Positions 19,201 through 21,774 are shown, counted from the first letter of the stretch. The stretch is DNA of 64,000 bases from an uncultured Clostridia bacterium (GCA_947629045.1 CANRCF010000002.1:32012-96011); one strand, 5' to 3'. The notes: generated from the letters alone by a model not told the origin. Program-made: numbers and translations.

Positions 19201-21774
19201 AAGTTTTAAGCCTTCTGGTAGGTGATCTGTTACTTTTTTTGCATAACCTGCGATTTCGCCTTCATTGTATACTCTTATTTTGTATATAACTTTGCTTCCT
19301 GTATGTACTGGTAATGCATCTTTTGGATGATCCTTAAATGCGGTTGTTCCACTATCTAATTTTGCTTGTCCTTTTGCTAAATTTCCTTTTTCTTCATCTG
19401 AAATCTTTGGCTCTCTTGTATAATCTTCTCCTGTTTTTATATCATTTTCATCTATATTTATTATGAATTTTCTTAATGCTAAGTCTAATTGATAGTTCTT
19501 CATTTGAATTACTATCTTATTGCCTTTTAGTTCTGCTGTGAATCCATTTAAGGTTGTATTTTTTGATGGTCCTTCTTCTATTGTTCCAGATGATTCTATT
19601 TTATCAACTACATATACACCATCTTCTATTTTTGTTGTTACAGTTAAAGTTATTGTTGCTTTTTGGTTGCTATATCCATCTGGTGCTTTTGTTTCTTTTA
19701 ATGTAATTGTTTGAGTTCCAGTTTTTGTAATTGATATATCTGTAATACTAATTTTTCCTGCTGAATCTGTTGTATATGTTCCATCTTTTAATTGCTGATT
19801 ATCAACTTTTACTTCAAAAGTAGCTCCTTGTAATTTCTTACTTGTGTTTCTAGAATCTACTTTTTCTAATTCTATGTCATAAGTTCCTTTTGCTGGCTCT
19901 AAGTATAATCTTTCAAAATCGTCATCATCTTCTTGACTTGTTTCTTTATAGTCCTCAATTCTTACATTGTTTGGATGAGAGTCTCTATCTCTGTCTTTAT
20001 CAGTAATTCCATATTCGTCTTTATGTGCCGTTATGTCTGCTATATTTTTTAGTTCCTTTGATGTTGCTCCTGGTTTTGCTACTACTTTACATTCTATTTC
20101 TAAATCTTCATAATCTATATCTTTATTTCCGAACTTTAATGCATCTATTTTTATATTTTGTAAGTAATTTGTTTTTACAGTTCTACCATCATCAGAATGC
20201 CAACCATAATCTTCGTTCACTTTGCTTTTGCCTTCTCCTGTACCTGGCTGTATAAATTCTAATCCATCTGGCAAATGGTCTGTTACTTCTGTTGCATAAC
20301 CTGCTATCGAGCCTTCATTATATACTCTTATTTTATATCTTACTATATCTCCTGTTTCTACTTTTAAAGCATCTTTTGGGTGTTTTTTCTCAGCTGTTGT
20401 ACCATTATTCCATGTTCCTTGTCCTATTACTAACTTTCCAATTTCAGTTTCTGAAATTTGTGGCTCTCTTTTATAATTTGCTCCTTCTTTTATTTCTTGG
20501 CTCCCTATTTTTACAATGAATTTTCTTAAAGCTAAGTCAAATGTTCCTGGTGTAAATTCTTTGCTATCTGTAAAAGTTTTCTTTTCTTTCTCTACAAGAA
20601 CTACTGGTTGGTCTGTTGTTCCAGGATTTTCAACTGACCAGTAATTTATTTCTGTAGTATAGTATGTACCTTCTATTTCAAATTTTATTTTAGAACAATT
20701 TGCCTGTTTTGGAATAGAAATATAAAAATCTTGTCCTATTAAATCATTTAAATTATTGTTTTCAGACGTATCTCCATTAACAGTTTTTATATACTTAACA
20801 TCATCAATTTGTGTATTATTATCTCCATATGTTACTTTTCCTGTTAAGTTGCAATTAGTTGTTCCTGCTTTTTCTAATCTGTATGGTCCAAAAACGTATC
20901 TATCTCCTTGTACTTGCATTGTAACATCTGTTTGTGCAAATGTTACAACTTTTTCAGTGCTATTTACATTTTCATAATTGTAATTTTTATTTTCTTCTGC
21001 TTTTTTTATCAAGTATTCAAATAATGCCTTACATGCTTCATATCTTTCATGTCCATTTTCAAAGCAATTATCACTACCTAAATCTTTATAATTCTTAGTC
21101 ACATCGTTTTGTATTGCATTTAACCAAAGAGAAAATGTTCTTTTTACATGATATGGATCATTATCTTCTGGGTTAGTATAATGCCATATTGCTAACTGTT
21201 GTACTACATCTATATCATCATCTGTTAAATAATCGAAATATTCATCTTTTACATCATCTATTTCTTGTTCTTTTGCATATTTTTTTGCTGCATCTAGTAA
21301 CATTTTTTTATTTTCTTCTGCTAATTTCTTTTCTTCGTCTGATGCATTAGTTTTTTCTAGTACATATATATTGTCTAAAATCCACATTAAAGAATTATAA
21401 TTATCTCCATCTGGTAATTTGCTTTTATAATCATTGGGTATTTCATCTTTTTTTCTCATGTCAAAATATTTTTTATAATCAGTTGGTTTAGGTTGTGTAC
21501 CAGACAACATATCTTCTGAACCAAATCCAGGACCACCTTTTATACAATAAATAGTTTCGTATCGAGGATTATCAGTTTTATATATTTTCCATACACTGTG
21601 AGATGTCCCACTATTAGAAGAAAATTTATATCCGTATCCTGTTTTAGTTCTTAACATTTCAATTTTTAATTGCATATTTCCTTCATTTGCTGAAACAACG
21701 TTAAATGAGCTAATAACTGTAATTATTAGCAAAAAAAATAAAATTAATAGTATGAATTTCTTTTTTAATTCCAT
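15013..21774 (-). CDS. giant surface adhesin (2253 aa): signal peptide, putative thioester domain, Ig-like domain, four ~350-aa modules (DUF11-like + SpaA/CnaB-like), C-terminal DUF11-like domains and a TM anchor
   Basis: Signal peptide MELKKKFILLILFF...VSA. YCIKGG (Cys77) plus VVQQLAIWHY (Gln193). DLALRKF...GD.V.Y.IRVYNEG.IAGYA..VTD.LP.GL...DRDS.PNN...EDDDDFE repeats. LQGA.FEV...TDS.GKI...ETKAP.GY repeats. Hydrophobic tail followed by KKFVI. Confidence 0.85.
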   Translation of the reverse strand: MELKKKFILLILFFLLIITVISSFNVVSANEGNMQLKIEMLRTKTGYGYKFSSNSGTSHSVWKIYKTDNPRYETIYCIKGGPGFGSEDMLSGTQPKPTDYKKYFDMRKKDEIPNDYKSKLPDGDNYNSLMWILDNIYVLEKTNASDEEKKLAEENKKMLLDAAKKYAKEQEIDDVKDEYFDYLTDDDIDVVQQLAIWHYTNPEDNDPYHVKRTFSLWLNAIQNDVTKNYKDLGSDNCFENGHERYEACKALFEYLIKKAEENKNYNYENVNSTEKVVTFAQTDVTMQVQGDRYVFGPYRLEKAGTTNCNLTGKVTYGDNNTQIDDVKYIKTVNGDTSENNNLNDLIGQDFYISIPKQANCSKIKFEIEGTYYTTEINYWSVENPGTTDQPVVLVEKEKKTFTDSKEFTPGTFDLALRKFIVKIGSQEIKEGANYKREPQISETEIGKLVIGQGTWNNGTTAEKKHPKDALKVETGDIVRYKIRVYNEGSIAGYATEVTDHLPDGLEFIQPGTGEGKSKVNEDYGWHSDDGRTVKTNYLQNIKIDALKFGNKDIDYEDLEIECKVVAKPGATSKELKNIADITAHKDEYGITDKDRDRDSHPNNVRIEDYKETSQEDDDDFERLYLEPAKGTYDIELEKVDSRNTSKKLQGATFEVKVDNQQLKDGTYTTDSAGKISITDISITKTGTQTITLKETKAPDGYSNQKATITLTVTTKIEDGVYVVDKIESSGTIEEGPSKNTTLNGFTAELKGNKIVIQMKNYQLDLALRKFIINIDENDIKTGEDYTREPKISDEEKGNLAKGQAKLDSGTTAFKDHPKDALPVHTGSKVIYKIRVYNEGEIAGYAKKVTDHLPEGLKLVEGSDINTQYGWKSTSADGRTIETEHLADKLLDAFDGQHLDYEDLQIECEVVAKPGATSKELKNIAEITEHSDEYKDTTVDDRDSQPNNVPINDYGETSKQDDDDFERLILPKAEGKYELELEKVDSRNTNLKLQGAKFEVKVDGEVLNETGIYETDSQGKITISNVPISEEGTQTVTIKETKAPAGYSNQGGTITLTVKTALEDGEYVVKSIESSGVKNAGASGTTELKGFTASQEGNKIKVQMENYQLDLALRKFITSIAGKNVENEDGTLAREPKISEEEKTKLKNGEATLDKGTTAEKVHTKDPLIVKTGDKVVYTIRVYNEGEIAGYAKKVTDHLPEGLKFVPQSESSINQEFGWTNPNEDGKTIETEYLKDKLLNAFDGENLHYRDLKIECEVVAKPGETETSLKNIAEITEHSDEHDDKTVKDRDSEPGNVNKDTYGEESQEDDDDFERLILEKATGSYELELEKADGQNLNKKLANAEFEITLPSGETKTYTSSDKGKISIKDLAIEKAGEQTITIKETKAPEGYSKSTDTIIVKVNTVLEDGKYLAKSIVIDEKTIDSTLTEVTSGKTELKANVVNGKIYIQMKNYKLDLALRKFIISIAGKELLAETEKAPEETPDPTQPIPQSEVLQETQLKTANQPKYSREPVITDEELEKLANGSASLDDGTTAQKVHSKEPLVVQTGDKVIYIIRVYNEGKIAGYAKKVTDYLPKGLKFLPESEVNKEYGWTNPNGDGRTIETEHLAEDLIEAFDGENLDYKDLKIECEVVAEAGETDKLLKNIAEITKHSDEHGDDTVEDRDSTPDNVEKDEYGDESQEDDDDFEDLILEKAKDGSYNLKLEKINGQNEKEKLEGAEFEITLPDGSKRTLTTNKDGILNIDDLPITKLETQTLKIKETKAPEGYSRSTDIITITVTTGIEKGKYVAKTIKIVDENSNSSSSSEGSSNKGNSVTLGSEEKDATVGKTNLTANVDDDTIFIKIDNYMLDLALRKFITKVNDTDITNRVPVFTKVSETEFKYEHPKDPVQVAYGNIVTYTLRIFNEGKIAGYASKIKDDLPEGLTFLPDHETNVEYRWKMYTEEGKETNNVEEAKYIETDYLAKENEKEENANLLKAFDQETMTMPDYRDVKIAFKVSEPNTSDRIIINTAEITDDRDENNEPVDDVDSTPDNDEPEEDDIDEEKIKVQYFDLSLKKWVSESIVTYGGKTTVTKTGHTGDENPEPPAKVEIRGSRIDKTTVKFKFVIKVTNEGEIAGYAKELIDYIPQGLRFDPKDNPQWREEDGKVLTDQLKDTLLQPGESAQVEIILTWINNKNNLGEKVNWAEIYKDDNEPHSPDIDSEPGNNKPGEDDIDDAPVLLGVATGSVPTYIGLTLVVISILAGGVVLIKKFVI
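16228..20538 (-). repeat. in-frame tandem array of four 1.04-1.18 kb coding modules within adhesin gene 1
   Basis: The DLALRKF codons recur at 20538, 19485, 18450, 17409 and 16227 on the minus strand. Confidence 0.85.

What the first reader, a model, noticed from the sequence alone, without database searches (positions are those of the whole stretch)
21196..21546. Putative Cys-Gln thioester (TQxA-type) warheads at the tips of three giant surface proteins
- **Adhesin 1:** Cys77 in TIYCIKGG (codon 21544-21546) and Gln193 in VVQQLAIWHY (codon 21196-21198).
- **Adhesin 2:** Cys78 in TIYCLKGG (26828-26830) and Gln204 in the same QQLAIW motif (26450-26452).
- **Adhesin 3:** a more divergent pair, Cys95 in NGYCMNHKG (62164-62166) and Gln227 in EKQTALWALW (61768-61770).
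- **Why this fits:** a Cys about 115-130 residues upstream of a QxA(I/L)W motif, in an N-terminal domain of a signal-peptide-bearing stalk protein, matches the thioester domains of Gram-positive adhesins. Examples are S. pyogenes Cpa and SfbI and C. perfringens Cpe0147, which bind host targets covalently.
- **Significance:** three or more such proteins in one 64-kb window would point to heavy investment in covalent adhesion.
Basis: partly seen in the sequence, partly recalled or inferred. Interest (0 to 1): 0.62.

Follow-up and report, generated by a model that had tools for sequence, protein, structure and literature searches.

The report
Thioester adhesin tips, wrong glutamine named
Two giant surface proteins of an uncultured rabbit-gut Clostridia bacterium carry a recognisable thioester "warhead" domain for covalent attachment at their tips. 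The reactive cysteine was named correctly, the partner glutamine was not, and the third protein is only a plausible, much more divergent case.

Summary

**Adhesins 1 and 2.** These are thioester-domain (TED) adhesins.
- Their isolated N-terminal domains pass Pfam TED (30.4 and 28.2 bits, cut-off 22).
- A confident AlphaFold model of adhesin 1 finds the Class II TED crystal structures 6FWY and 6FWV as its only significant matches.
- The stalks are isopeptide-type repeats (SpaA and DUF11/CLIPPER).

**The glutamine is misassigned.** QQLAIW is the helical TQxxΦW accessory motif. Published structures and mutagenesis show that this Gln does not form the bond. The partner Gln lies on the last β-strand.
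- Here that is the invariant Gln of "[D/E]QPVV" at the start of the last long β-strand.
- The predicted pairs are Cys77–Gln389 (adhesin 1) and Cys78–Gln415 (adhesin 2).

**Adhesin 3.**
- It has no TED HMM hit and no fold match.
- It shares a homologous β-sandwich with the adhesin 1 family, an invariant Cys95 and a KQxAΦW motif.
- After a variable Cys/His-rich insert it has a near-invariant Gln540 strand.
- It is a plausible but unproven divergent TED.

**Fourth giant gene.** It has no Cys in its first ~1,100 residues, so no N-terminal TED.

**Verdict.** This is a new member of a known kind. The Cys–Gln distance could not be measured here.

The parts
15013..21774 (-). Adhesin 1 gene (2253 aa): signal peptide, TED tip, stalk of 6 DUF11/CLIPPER and 4 SpaA repeats, C-terminal membrane-anchor or sorting-like signal
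   Evidence: ORF, translation, Pfam SpaA 5.3e-44, DUF11 2.5e-31 and TED, repeat alignment.
21688..21774 (-). Adhesin 1 signal peptide (residues 1-29, ...VVSA|NEG)
   Evidence: Read from the sequence. The cleavage site is inferred from the AXA-like VSA.
20551..21687 (-). Adhesin 1 thioester domain, enlarged Class II type (residues 30-408)
   Evidence: Pfam TED 30.4 bits against cut-off 22. AlphaFold model pLDDT 88.9, pTM 0.86. Foldseek top hits 6fwy at 1.2e-9 and 6fwv at 7.9e-8.
21544..21546 (-). Cys77, predicted thioester cysteine (IYCIK = [YFL]CΦζ motif), at the end of a β-strand in the model
   Evidence: Kept in 34 of 35 homologues. A Cys-bearing copy of the motif was found in 83 genes of the MAG loci, although the search pattern also allowed Ser.
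21184..21201 (-). QQLAIW (residues 192-197), the helical TQxxΦW accessory motif.
   Evidence: Lies in helix 155-170 of the model. Gln192, Gln193 and Trp197 are invariant. Role of the motif from PMC4450167 and PMC6194298.
20608..20610 (-). Gln389 in TTDQPVVLVE, the predicted thioester-forming glutamine. It sits in the loop between the two long strands that end the domain, two residues before the last one
   Evidence: Codon. Present in every homologue that covers the region and matched as xQPV[VA] in most of the 83 MAG genes. Model strands 333-350 and 361-377 flank model position 359.
15016..15126 (-). Adhesin 1 C-terminal signal PVLLGVATG + hydrophobic helix + KKFVI (no LPXTG)
   Evidence: The family-wide pattern DIDDAPV.L..xTG + TM + LIKKFV[IL] is.
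21950..27061 (-). Adhesin 2 gene (1703 aa), same architecture. Its 3' 1.29 kb is 95.8% identical to adhesin 1
25760..26974 (-). Adhesin 2 thioester domain (residues 30-434)
   Evidence: Pfam TED 28.2 bits against cut-off 22 when scanned alone. 50% identical to the adhesin 1 domain.
26828..26830 (-). Cys78, predicted thioester cysteine (IYCLK)
26438..26455 (-).
25817..25819 (-). Gln415 in DTEQPVVKVE, predicted thioester-forming glutamine
56713..62448 (-). Adhesin 3 gene (1911 aa): N-terminal hydrophobic signal or anchor, TED-like head, PT-rich linker, SdrD_B/CarboxypepD_reg-type stalk, C-terminal ILPPFG + TM + KK
60754..62340 (-). Adhesin 3 TED-like head (residues 37-565). Its β-sandwich is homologous to that of the adhesin 1 family. 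TED status is unproven
   Evidence: hhalign prob 96.6, E 5.6e-10 for the sandwich. Global alignment. No Pfam hit. A model truncated at residue 470 had no TED fold hit.
62164..62166 (-). Cys95 (GYCMN), invariant in all 32 family members
61756..61773 (-).
   Evidence: Gln 97%, Trp 97%. In helix 188-198 of the model.
60853..61170 (-). Cys/His-rich insert (residues 427-532; 10 Cys, 11 His, four CxxC). The stretch between the FKYM strand and the conserved Gln spans 22-137 residues across homologues
60829..60831 (-). Gln540 in INIQGMMIADAKRTIY, candidate thioester-forming glutamine of adhesin 3
   Evidence: A Gln at this place in 28 of 30 family members with a match in this region. Aligned with Gln389 of adhesin 1 in the global profile alignment.
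62469..64000 (-). 3' part of a fourth giant surface-protein gene (1661 aa in the source contig). No Cys in its first ~1,100 residues, so no N-terminal TED. C-terminal VLGVVTG + TM

Best explanation
**What they are.** Adhesins 1 and 2 are fibrillar 'thioester-isopeptide' surface proteins of an uncultured rabbit-gut Clostridia bacterium.

**How they most likely work.**
1. After Sec export, the N-terminal domain (about 380-405 aa) folds as an enlarged Class II-type thioester domain.
2. The cysteine of the YC[IL]K motif (Cys77 or Cys78) lies on a β-strand of the barrel lobe.
3. The glutamine of the invariant [D/E]QPVV motif (Gln389 or Gln415) lies two residues before the last long β-strand, which follows an inserted β-sandwich. 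By analogy with the Class II slipknot hairpin, this strand pair should run back into the head.
4. [quoted passage not shown]
5. The helical QQLAIW motif (Gln193 or Gln204, and Trp) packs against the bond and hydrogen-bonds the Cys backbone. It is not itself cross-linked.
6. A target amine, such as a Lys side chain on a host, mucus, food-particle or bacterial surface protein, attacks the thioester carbonyl. This gives an intermolecular isopeptide to the Gln and frees the thiol.
7. The stalk alternates CnaA-like DUF11/CLIPPER and CnaB-like SpaA domains, whose Lys/Asp-or-Glu/Asn triads are kept in nearly all repeats. It holds the tip away from the cell.
8. A C-terminal 'LGV[A/V]TG' + helix + KK signal holds the protein in the envelope.

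**Adhesin 3.** It probably carries a very divergent version of the same head (Cys95 with Gln540), with a Cys/His-rich module inserted just before the Gln strand.

**Shown versus inferred.**
- Shown: family membership, fold class, residue conservation and stalk domain types.
- Inferred: the bond itself, the Gln assignment, the target and the anchoring chemistry.
For: **Family and fold**
- Pfam TED scores 30.4 bits (adhesin 1) and 28.2 bits (adhesin 2), cut-off 22, on the isolated domains. The functionally tested TIEpLS20 scores 24.5 on the same model.
- The AlphaFold model has pLDDT 88.9 and pTM 0.86.
- Its only Foldseek hits at E<=0.001 are Class II TED crystal structures: EfmTIE86 (6fwy, 1.2e-9) and BaTIE (6fwv, 7.9e-8). 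The Class I SfbI domain is marginal at 0.057.

**Which glutamine**
- Solved thioesters:
  - Class II: BaTIE C71-Q266, SaTIE C296-Q467, EfmTIE86 C88-Q292.
  - Class I: SfbI C109-Q261, CpTIE C138-Q267.
- In all of these the Gln is on the last β-strand.
- The TQxxΦW Gln and Trp are helical and dispensable for bond formation.
- In the model, Cys47 ends a β-strand, QQLAIW lies in helix 155-170, and Gln359 sits between strands 333-350 and 361-377, about 20 residues before the domain end. EfmTIE86 has the same layout (Q292, domain end A314).
- This Gln is present in every homologue covering the region. The Cys is kept in 34 of 35.
- In 83 genes from the MAG loci the Cys motif was present, and QQ..W and xQPV[VA] were matched in most.

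**Stalk**
- SpaA 5.3e-44 and DUF11 2.5e-31.
- DUF11 (CLIPPER) is an experimentally shown isopeptide domain (PMC12617251).
- In the CLIPPER repeats, the Lys of DLxLxK, the Asp of D..PxGL and the Asn of NxAxI are identical in all ten copies.
- In the SpaA repeats, the Lys and the Glu of ETKAP are identical in all seven; the putative Asn was captured in only some of the cut segments.

**Adhesin 3**
- β-sandwich homology to the adhesin 1 family has prob 96.6 and E 5.6e-10.
- Cys95 is invariant.
- Gln540 is present in 28 of 30 members. By contrast, the helical-motif Gln is replaced by Asn in one member that keeps the strand Gln.
- That is the conservation pattern published for TEDs.
Against: **No direct measurement**
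- No atomic coordinates were returned, so the Cys-Gln distance was not measured for either candidate Gln.

**Weak structural and sequence links**
- Foldseek TM-scores are low (0.25-0.33, rmsd 11-14 Å). The match is local or topological, not a rigid superposition.
- There is no sequence-level hit to any solved TED. No residue-level alignment to a crystal structure could be made.
- hhalign to TIEpLS20 was insignificant and placed its Gln256 opposite a Trp.

**Unresolved residues**
- In the adhesin 1 family both QQ residues are also invariant, so conservation alone does not discriminate between the candidate glutamines.

**Adhesin 3**
- It has no TED HMM hit even at E<=10.
- Its model, cut before Gln540, found no TED.
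- Its N-lobe similarity to adhesin 1 is no better than column shuffles.
- The global alignment that pairs Gln540 with Gln389 used sequences spliced according to the hypothesis.

**Anchoring**
- There is no LPXTG motif, and no sortase-like ORF in the window or the fetched flanks of the related loci.
Confidence: 0.75

Rival explanations
1. The thioester forms between the YC cysteine and the glutamine of the QQLAIW or KQTALW motif (Gln193, Gln204, Gln227).
For: - These glutamines are invariant or nearly so.
- In solved TEDs the motif lies directly next to the thioester, so it is spatially close to the Cys.
- The adhesin 1 family has an unusual second invariant Gln (QQ instead of TQ) whose role is unexplained.
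Against: - In every solved TED the bond goes to a β-strand Gln C-terminal to the helices.
- Mutating the motif Gln or Trp in Cpa does not stop bond formation (PMC4450167, PMC6194298).
- The motif is helical in the model.
- A separate invariant Gln exists at the topologically correct place.
- One adhesin 3 homologue has Asn in the motif but keeps the strand Gln.
Confidence: 0.07
2. The heads of adhesins 1 and 2 have the TED fold but form no thioester. They bind non-covalently, and the Cys and Gln have only structural roles.
For: - No chemistry was tested.
- One natural homologue has Ser for the Cys (P0034), so the fold tolerates loss of the thiol.
Against: - The Cys and the strand Gln are kept across homologues with head identities down to 27% to adhesin 1. 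The motifs recur in 83 genes of the related loci.
- That is the signature of a selected bond pair.
- In all TEDs examined experimentally in PMC4450167 and PMC6194298 that had both residues, the bond formed.
Confidence: 0.1
3. The head of adhesin 3 is not a TED. It is a different adhesive module that shares only the Ig-like β-sandwich with adhesin 1. Cys95 serves in a disulfide or metal site together with the Cys/His-rich region.
For: - No TED HMM hit in any of 21 family members, nor in the full head.
- No TED among the Foldseek hits.
- N-lobe profile similarity is not better than shuffles.
- The head holds 10 Cys and 11 His in four CxxC motifs, and a second Cys (Cys131) is conserved in half of the family.
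Against: - Three TED landmarks occur in the right order and predicted context.
  - YCΦζ: the Cys is invariant.
  - KQxAΦW: on a helix in the model.
  - ΦQζΦΦ: on the last conserved segment of the head, after the sandwich.
- Only Cys95 and Gln540 approach full conservation, as published for TEDs.
- The model that failed the fold search lacked the Gln strand and had a low-confidence N-lobe.
Confidence: 0.4

Closest known systems
Class II thioester domains of TIE proteins: Bacillus anthracis BaTIE (PDB 6FWV, Cys71-Gln266) and Enterococcus faecium EfmTIE86 (6FWY, Cys88-Gln292)
   Same: - They are the best and only significant structural matches to the adhesin 1 head.
- Shared features: an N-terminal head on a stalk of isopeptide domains, and a β-sandwich inserted after the helical bundle.
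- The Gln comes just before the last long strand, about 20 residues before the domain end.
- Both have the YCΦζ and TQxxΦW-type motifs.
   Different: - The head here is about 380-405 aa, against about 250-280.
- About 115 residues separate the Cys from the helical motif, against about 55 in EfmTIE86.
- The motif reads QQLAIW rather than TQ.
- Sequence identity is 11-14%, and TM-scores are only 0.25-0.33.
- The stalk contains DUF11/CLIPPER domains as well as CnaB-type domains.
- There is no LPXTG sorting motif.
TIEpLS20 (gene 34 of Bacillus subtilis plasmid pLS20), a Class II TED adhesin needed for conjugation (PMC8092201)
   Same: - Matches the Pfam TED model (24.5 bits, against 30.4 and 28.2 here).
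- Has a YCID Cys motif and a predicted strand Gln (Gln256) about 25 residues before the domain end.
- Has a CnaB-type stalk.
   Different: - It is plasmid-borne and acts in mating-pair formation.
- It also matches TED_2 (PF20610), which the window proteins do not.
- There is no significant profile alignment to the adhesin 1 family.
   Same: - The same chemistry is expected: a Cys-Gln thioester attacked by a target Lys.
- They share the three sequence motifs.
- SfbI-TED is a marginal fold hit (E 0.057).
   Different: - Class I heads lack the inserted β-sandwich and slipknot hairpin.
- Their Cys-Gln spacing is about 130-150 residues, against 312-445 here.
- CpTIE has Thr-Gln ester-bond stalk domains, which were not found here.

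Membership tests
Thioester domain (TED, Pfam PF08341) | Match to the family HMM above the curated threshold | tested here: met
   Adhesin 1 head 30.4 bits and adhesin 2 head 28.2 bits, cut-off 22. In the whole-protein scan adhesin 2 was 21.8. Adhesin 3 had no hit at E<=10, so the feature is not met for adhesin 3.
Thioester domain (TED) | [YFL]CΦζ motif with a conserved Cys in β-strand context | tested here: met
   YCIK, YCLK and YCMN. The Cys is kept in 34 of 35 members of the adhesin 1 family and 32 of 32 of the adhesin 3 family. It lies at the end of strand 44-47 in the adhesin 1 model.
Thioester domain (TED) | Conserved bond-forming Gln on the C-terminal β-strand (weak ΦQζΦΦ motif) | tested here: met
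   Adhesins 1 and 2: [D/E]QPVV, with the Gln present in every homologue covering it, at the start of the last strand. Adhesin 3: IQGMM, with a Gln in 28 of 30 members. For adhesin 3 the strand context was not modelled.
Thioester domain (TED) | α-helical TQxxΦW motif next to the bond (common but not universal) | tested here: met
   QQLAIW lies in helix 155-170 of the model and KQTALW in helix 188-198. The Thr is replaced by Gln or Lys.
Thioester domain (TED) | TED fold (β-barrel lobe plus three-helix bundle) | tested here: met
   Adhesin 1 model: the only hits at E<=0.001 are TED crystal structures, although TM-scores are low. Adhesin 3 model (truncated, pLDDT 65): no TED hit, so inconclusive for adhesin 3.
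Thioester domain (TED) | Cys Sγ and Gln Cδ within bonding distance; -17 Da mass loss; amine reactivity | not testable with these tools
   The structure tool returns no coordinates. Mass spectrometry and mutants are needed.
Class II TED (Miller et al. 2018) | β-sandwich inserted between helix α3 and strand P; long P-Q hairpin carrying the Gln back into the head (slipknot) | tested here: inconclusive
   In the model the last helix (211-231) is followed by about seven strands and then two long strands, 333-350 and 361-377. Class II structures outrank Class I in Foldseek. The threading itself could not be inspected without coordinates.
TIE proteins (thioester-isopeptide-ester surface proteins) | Stalk of intramolecular isopeptide or ester domains | tested here: met
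   SpaA PF17802 and DUF11/CLIPPER PF01345 repeats. The CLIPPER Lys/Asp/Asn positions are identical in all ten repeats. In the SpaA repeats the Lys and Glu are identical in all seven, and the Asn was captured in only some segments. No Thr-Gln ester domain was detected. Adhesin 3 uses SdrD_B/CarboxypepD_reg-type domains instead.
TIE proteins / sortase substrates | C-terminal LPXTG cell-wall sorting signal | tested here: not met
   The C-termini read LLGVATG, LLGVVTG and ILPPFG, followed by a hydrophobic helix and a KK tail. A conserved xTG is present family-wide. No sortase-like TLxTC ORF was found in the window or the fetched flanks of the related loci.
NCBIfam TIGR03934 TQXA_dom | Match above the curated cut-off (30.4 bits) | tested here: not met
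   Only adhesin 2 matched, at 16.1 bits and E 0.008. Adhesins 1 and 3 had no hit.

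The most novel reading that the evidence does not exclude
Adhesin 3 and its roughly 40 relatives may be a cryptic third structural class of thioester domain that current HMMs do not detect.
- A variable Cys/His-rich module (the stretch between the FKYM strand and the conserved Gln spans 22-137 residues, with several CxxC) sits immediately before the bond-forming Gln. 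There it could gate the reactivity of the warhead by metal binding or redox state.
- These proteins, like adhesins 1 and 2, end in non-LPXTG C-terminal signals (ILPPFG, or xTG). This hints at an anchoring route in these small-genome gut Clostridia that has not been described.
Probability: 0.3. Interest if true: 0.6.

Novelty: new member of a known kind. Interest (0 to 1): 0.38.

Why it matters
- **Extends the known range.** Covalent, thioester-mediated adhesion is well established in pathogens. These genes extend it to an uncultured clade of gut Clostridia, some with complete chromosomes of only 1.57-1.70 Mb, that carries several such genes per genome. In this window, four giant surface-protein genes take about 22 kb of 64 kb.
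- **Prevents a misleading experiment.** The residue correction matters in practice. It would probably still see the -17 Da loss and wrongly conclude that there is no Cys-Gln bond.
- **Possible gap in current models.** If the adhesin 3 head is confirmed, current TED models miss a whole divergent class.

Tried and rejected
- **Sequence searches of the heads against PDB chains.** Both single-sequence and profile searches gave nothing relevant.
- **Word-indexed homologue search for the adhesin 3 head.** It gave no hits. Only the exhaustive HMMER search found its 41 relatives.
- **Residue-level mapping through TIEpLS20.**
  - hhalign was insignificant.
  - Its own homologue search gave only 2 proteins, too few for a profile.
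- **AlphaFold model of adhesin 3.**
  - I cut the sequence at residue 470, before I recognised that the conserved Gln strand lies after the insert.
  - The model has a poor N-lobe and no TED fold hit.
- **N-lobe-only profile comparison of the two families.** The Cys and helical motifs pair up in order, but the scores are not better than column shuffles, and the shuffle null was itself noisy.
- **Cys-protease or transglutaminase-like reading of the invariant Cys.** Rejected, because no invariant His or Asp accompanies it in either family.
- **Search for a linked sortase by its TLxTC signature.** None was found, but this is a crude test.
- **Laying rabbit-gut contigs on the locus to look for tip hypervariability.** The result was fragmented, confounded by paralogues and uninformative.

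Full report
**Observation.** The window (29.4% G+C) carries three giant minus-strand ORFs: 15013-21774 (adhesin 1, 2253 aa), 21950-27061 (adhesin 2, 1703 aa) and 56713-62448 (adhesin 3, 1911 aa).
- Cys77 and Gln193 in adhesin 1.
- Cys78 and Gln204 in adhesin 2.
- Cys95 and Gln227 in adhesin 3.

**Adhesins 1 and 2 are thioester-domain adhesins.**
- Each starts with a typical signal peptide (…VVSA|).
- The isolated N-terminal domains score 30.4 and 28.2 bits on Pfam TED (PF08341, cut-off 22). That is higher than the functionally tested TIEpLS20 adhesin, which scores 24.5. In the whole-protein scan adhesin 2 fell just under the cut-off at 21.8.
- An AlphaFold model of adhesin 1 residues 31-420, built on 35 homologues, is confident (pLDDT 88.9, pTM 0.86).
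- The model's only Foldseek matches at E<=0.001 in the PDB are Class II thioester domains: E. faecium TIE86 (6fwy, 1.2e-9) and B. anthracis TIE (6fwv, 7.9e-8). The Class I SfbI domain is marginal at 0.057.
- TM-scores are low (0.25-0.33), so the match is topological rather than a rigid fit. The head here is about 100 residues larger than known Class II heads.
- The stalks alternate SpaA/CnaB-type (PF17802, 5.3e-44) and DUF11 (PF01345, 2.5e-31) repeats.
- DUF11 was recently renamed CLIPPER and shown by crystallography to be a CnaA-like isopeptide domain (PMC12617251).
- In the ten CLIPPER repeats of the two proteins, the Lys of DLxLxK, the Asp of D..PxGL and the Asn of NxAxI are identical in every copy.
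- In the seven SpaA repeats, the Lys of EK[V/A/I][D/N] and the Glu of ETKAPxGYS are identical. The putative isopeptide Asn near the repeat end was captured in only some of the cut segments.

**The partner glutamine is not the one named.** Two papers define three TED motifs:
- [YFL]CΦζ, which carries the Cys.
- A weak ΦQζΦΦ on a C-terminal β-strand, which carries the bond-forming Gln.
- A separate α-helical TQxxΦW motif (formerly TQxA(I/V)W). Its Gln and Trp lie next to the bond and hydrogen-bond the Cys backbone, but are not needed for bond formation (PMC4450167; PMC6194298).

Solved pairs are SfbI C109-Q261, PnTIE C94-Q247, CpTIE C138-Q267, BaTIE C71-Q266, SaTIE C296-Q467 and EfmTIE86 C88-Q292.

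QQLAIW (residues 192-197) is the helical motif. In the model it lies in helix 155-170 (model numbering is residue minus 30).

The family has one further invariant Gln, in [D/E]QPVV.
- It is present in every one of the 35 homologues that covers the region, and was matched in most of the 83 genes from the related MAG loci.
- In the model it is position 359, in the loop between the two long strands 333-350 and 361-377 that end the domain.
- It lies about 20 residues before the next domain. EfmTIE86 has the same layout (Gln292, domain end Ala314).

I therefore assign the bonds as Cys77-Gln389 (Gln codon 20608-20610) and Cys78-Gln415 (Gln codon 25817-25819).

This rests on topology and conservation. 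The tools return no coordinates, so no distance was measured, and the invariant QQ pair leaves a small doubt.

**Adhesin 3.**
- No TED HMM hit appears in it or in 20 relatives.
- Its head had no homologues in the word-indexed search, and 41 in the exhaustive one.
- Many of those relatives share its whole architecture, including the C-terminal ILPPFG + helix + KK.
- Within the family, Cys95 is invariant. Gln227 and Trp231 of KQxAΦW are 97% conserved.
- The β-sandwich that follows is homologous to the sandwich of the adhesin 1 family (hhalign prob 96.6, E 5.6e-10).
- At the position equivalent to Gln389 the family mostly has Lys.
- Next comes a Cys/His-rich insert: 106 aa in adhesin 3, with 10 Cys, 11 His and four CxxC. 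The stretch between the FKYM strand and the conserved Gln spans 22-137 residues across the family.
- After the insert lies a conserved segment, Q-x6-7-DAxRxΦYEQEΦ. Its Gln is present in 28 of the 30 members with a match there.
- In adhesin 3 this is Gln540 (codon 60829-60831).
- One member has Asn in the helical motif yet keeps this Gln. That is the conservation pattern published for TEDs.
- A global profile alignment with the insert spliced out pairs Cys77 with Cys95, Gln193 with Gln227, and Gln389 with Gln540 (prob 96.7). The splice followed my hypothesis, and the score comes mainly from the sandwich.
- The N-lobes alone are not more alike than shuffled controls.
- My model of adhesin 3 was cut at residue 470, so it lacked the Gln strand. 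Its N-lobe is poor and it found no TED.

Verdict for adhesin 3: a plausible divergent TED, at about even odds.

**Context.**
- The exact sequence occurs in rabbit gut metagenomes.
- 386 stretches encoding relatives of the adhesin 1 head were found among species-representative genomes.
  - All of the 77 loci kept and listed come from uncultured gut Clostridia.
  - Sources include rabbit, Hadza human, mouse and roe-deer rumen samples, and Clostridium sp. CAG:508, CAG:567 and CAG:245.
  - The best match is 57% identical.
  - Several copies occur per genome, and two complete chromosomes measure 1.57 and 1.70 Mb.
- Their C-termini are uniform: DIDDAPV.L..xTG + helix + LIKKFV[IL]. There is no LPXTG.
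- No sortase-like ORF lies in the window or the fetched flanks (a crude motif test).
- A fourth giant gene reaches into the window at 62469-64000. In the source contig it encodes 1661 aa. It has no Cys in its first ~1,100 residues, so it has no N-terminal TED.

**Mechanism (inferred).**
1. Sec export and folding of the head.
2. Autocatalytic attack of the Cys thiol on the strand-Gln carboxamide, releasing NH3 and forming a buried thioester.
3. Attack of a target amine on the thioester, giving a Gln-Lys isopeptide and a free thiol.
4. An isopeptide-stabilised stalk bears the load.

The target and the anchoring chemistry are unknown.

**Novelty.** TEDs on Gram-positive fibrillar adhesins are a known kind, and Pfam recognises adhesins 1 and 2. 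Three things are new:
- The host clade and the copy number.
- The enlarged Class II-type head with QQ in place of TQ.
- The non-LPXTG ends.

The adhesin 3 family, if confirmed, would be a new variant that current models miss.

Noticed in passing
window 12912-29473 (-): The adhesin 2 and adhesin 1 genes lie between gdpP (27473-29473) and rplI (14326-14787) with dnaB (12912-14261). Two giant genes are wedged into what is, from general knowledge of Firmicutes genomes rather than a test here, usually a contiguous housekeeping cluster.
   Followed up: no
window 15013-16300 vs 21950-23240; heads at 20551-21687 vs 25760-26974: Adhesins 1 and 2 share a 1.29-kb 3' end at 95.8% nucleotide identity and a 2.4-kb middle part at 79%, yet their heads are only about 50% identical in protein. 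This looks like recombination or gene conversion keeping the stalk and anchor while the tips diverge. Both also carry the same roughly 40-aa Pro-rich insert (LAETEKAPEETPDPTQPIPQSEV…) inside one CLIPPER repeat.
   Followed up: partly
window 15016-15126, 21953-22063, 62472-62600; loci L003-L078: The C-terminal signals lack LPXTG. A conserved '..xTG' (LGVATG, LGVVTG; in relatives SVVTG, SIVTG, APATG, VQTG) precedes the hydrophobic helix and a KK tail in about 60 related genes. It may be a non-canonical sorting motif. No sortase-like ORF is nearby.
   Followed up: partly
window 56716-56838; proteins P0048, P0053, P0062, P0063, P0066, P0073: The adhesin 3 family ends in a different conserved signal: (V/I)ILPPFG + helix + KK. 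It is preceded by a conserved '…GRRMA[FY]S[IV]xGNQ[DN]P…' block. No NCBIfam sorting-signal model matched it.
   Followed up: no
window 60853-61170 (-): A Cys/His-rich 106-aa module (10 Cys, 11 His; CNKC, CDYC, CYHC, CNHC) sits just before the candidate Gln540 strand. Across homologues, the stretch between the FKYM strand and that Gln varies from 22 to 137 residues. Homologues keep a 'C[HY]xC..T.[YF]L' element about 10 residues before the Gln. This may be a metal or disulfide module next to the warhead.
   Followed up: partly
window 60600-60753 (-): A Pro/Thr-rich linker (TPTPTPTSTTT repeated, 51 aa) lies between the adhesin 3 head and its stalk.
   Followed up: no
window 62469-64000 (-); full gene at L080:2995-7980: A fourth giant surface-protein gene (1661 aa; SdrD_B and CLIPPER-type domains; C-terminal VLGVVTG + helix) ends 20 nt upstream of the start of adhesin 3. 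It has no Cys in its first ~1,100 residues, so it has no N-terminal TED.
   Followed up: yes
protein P0034 (homologue of the adhesin 1 head): A natural variant has Ser in place of the thioester Cys (IYSIKAG) but keeps QQLAIW and EQPVV. It is either an inactive tip or a possible oxygen-ester variant.
   Followed up: no
window 50814-52037 (-): A 407-aa ORF between the TatD-like gene and the WG-repeat protein gene has no Pfam match.
   Followed up: no
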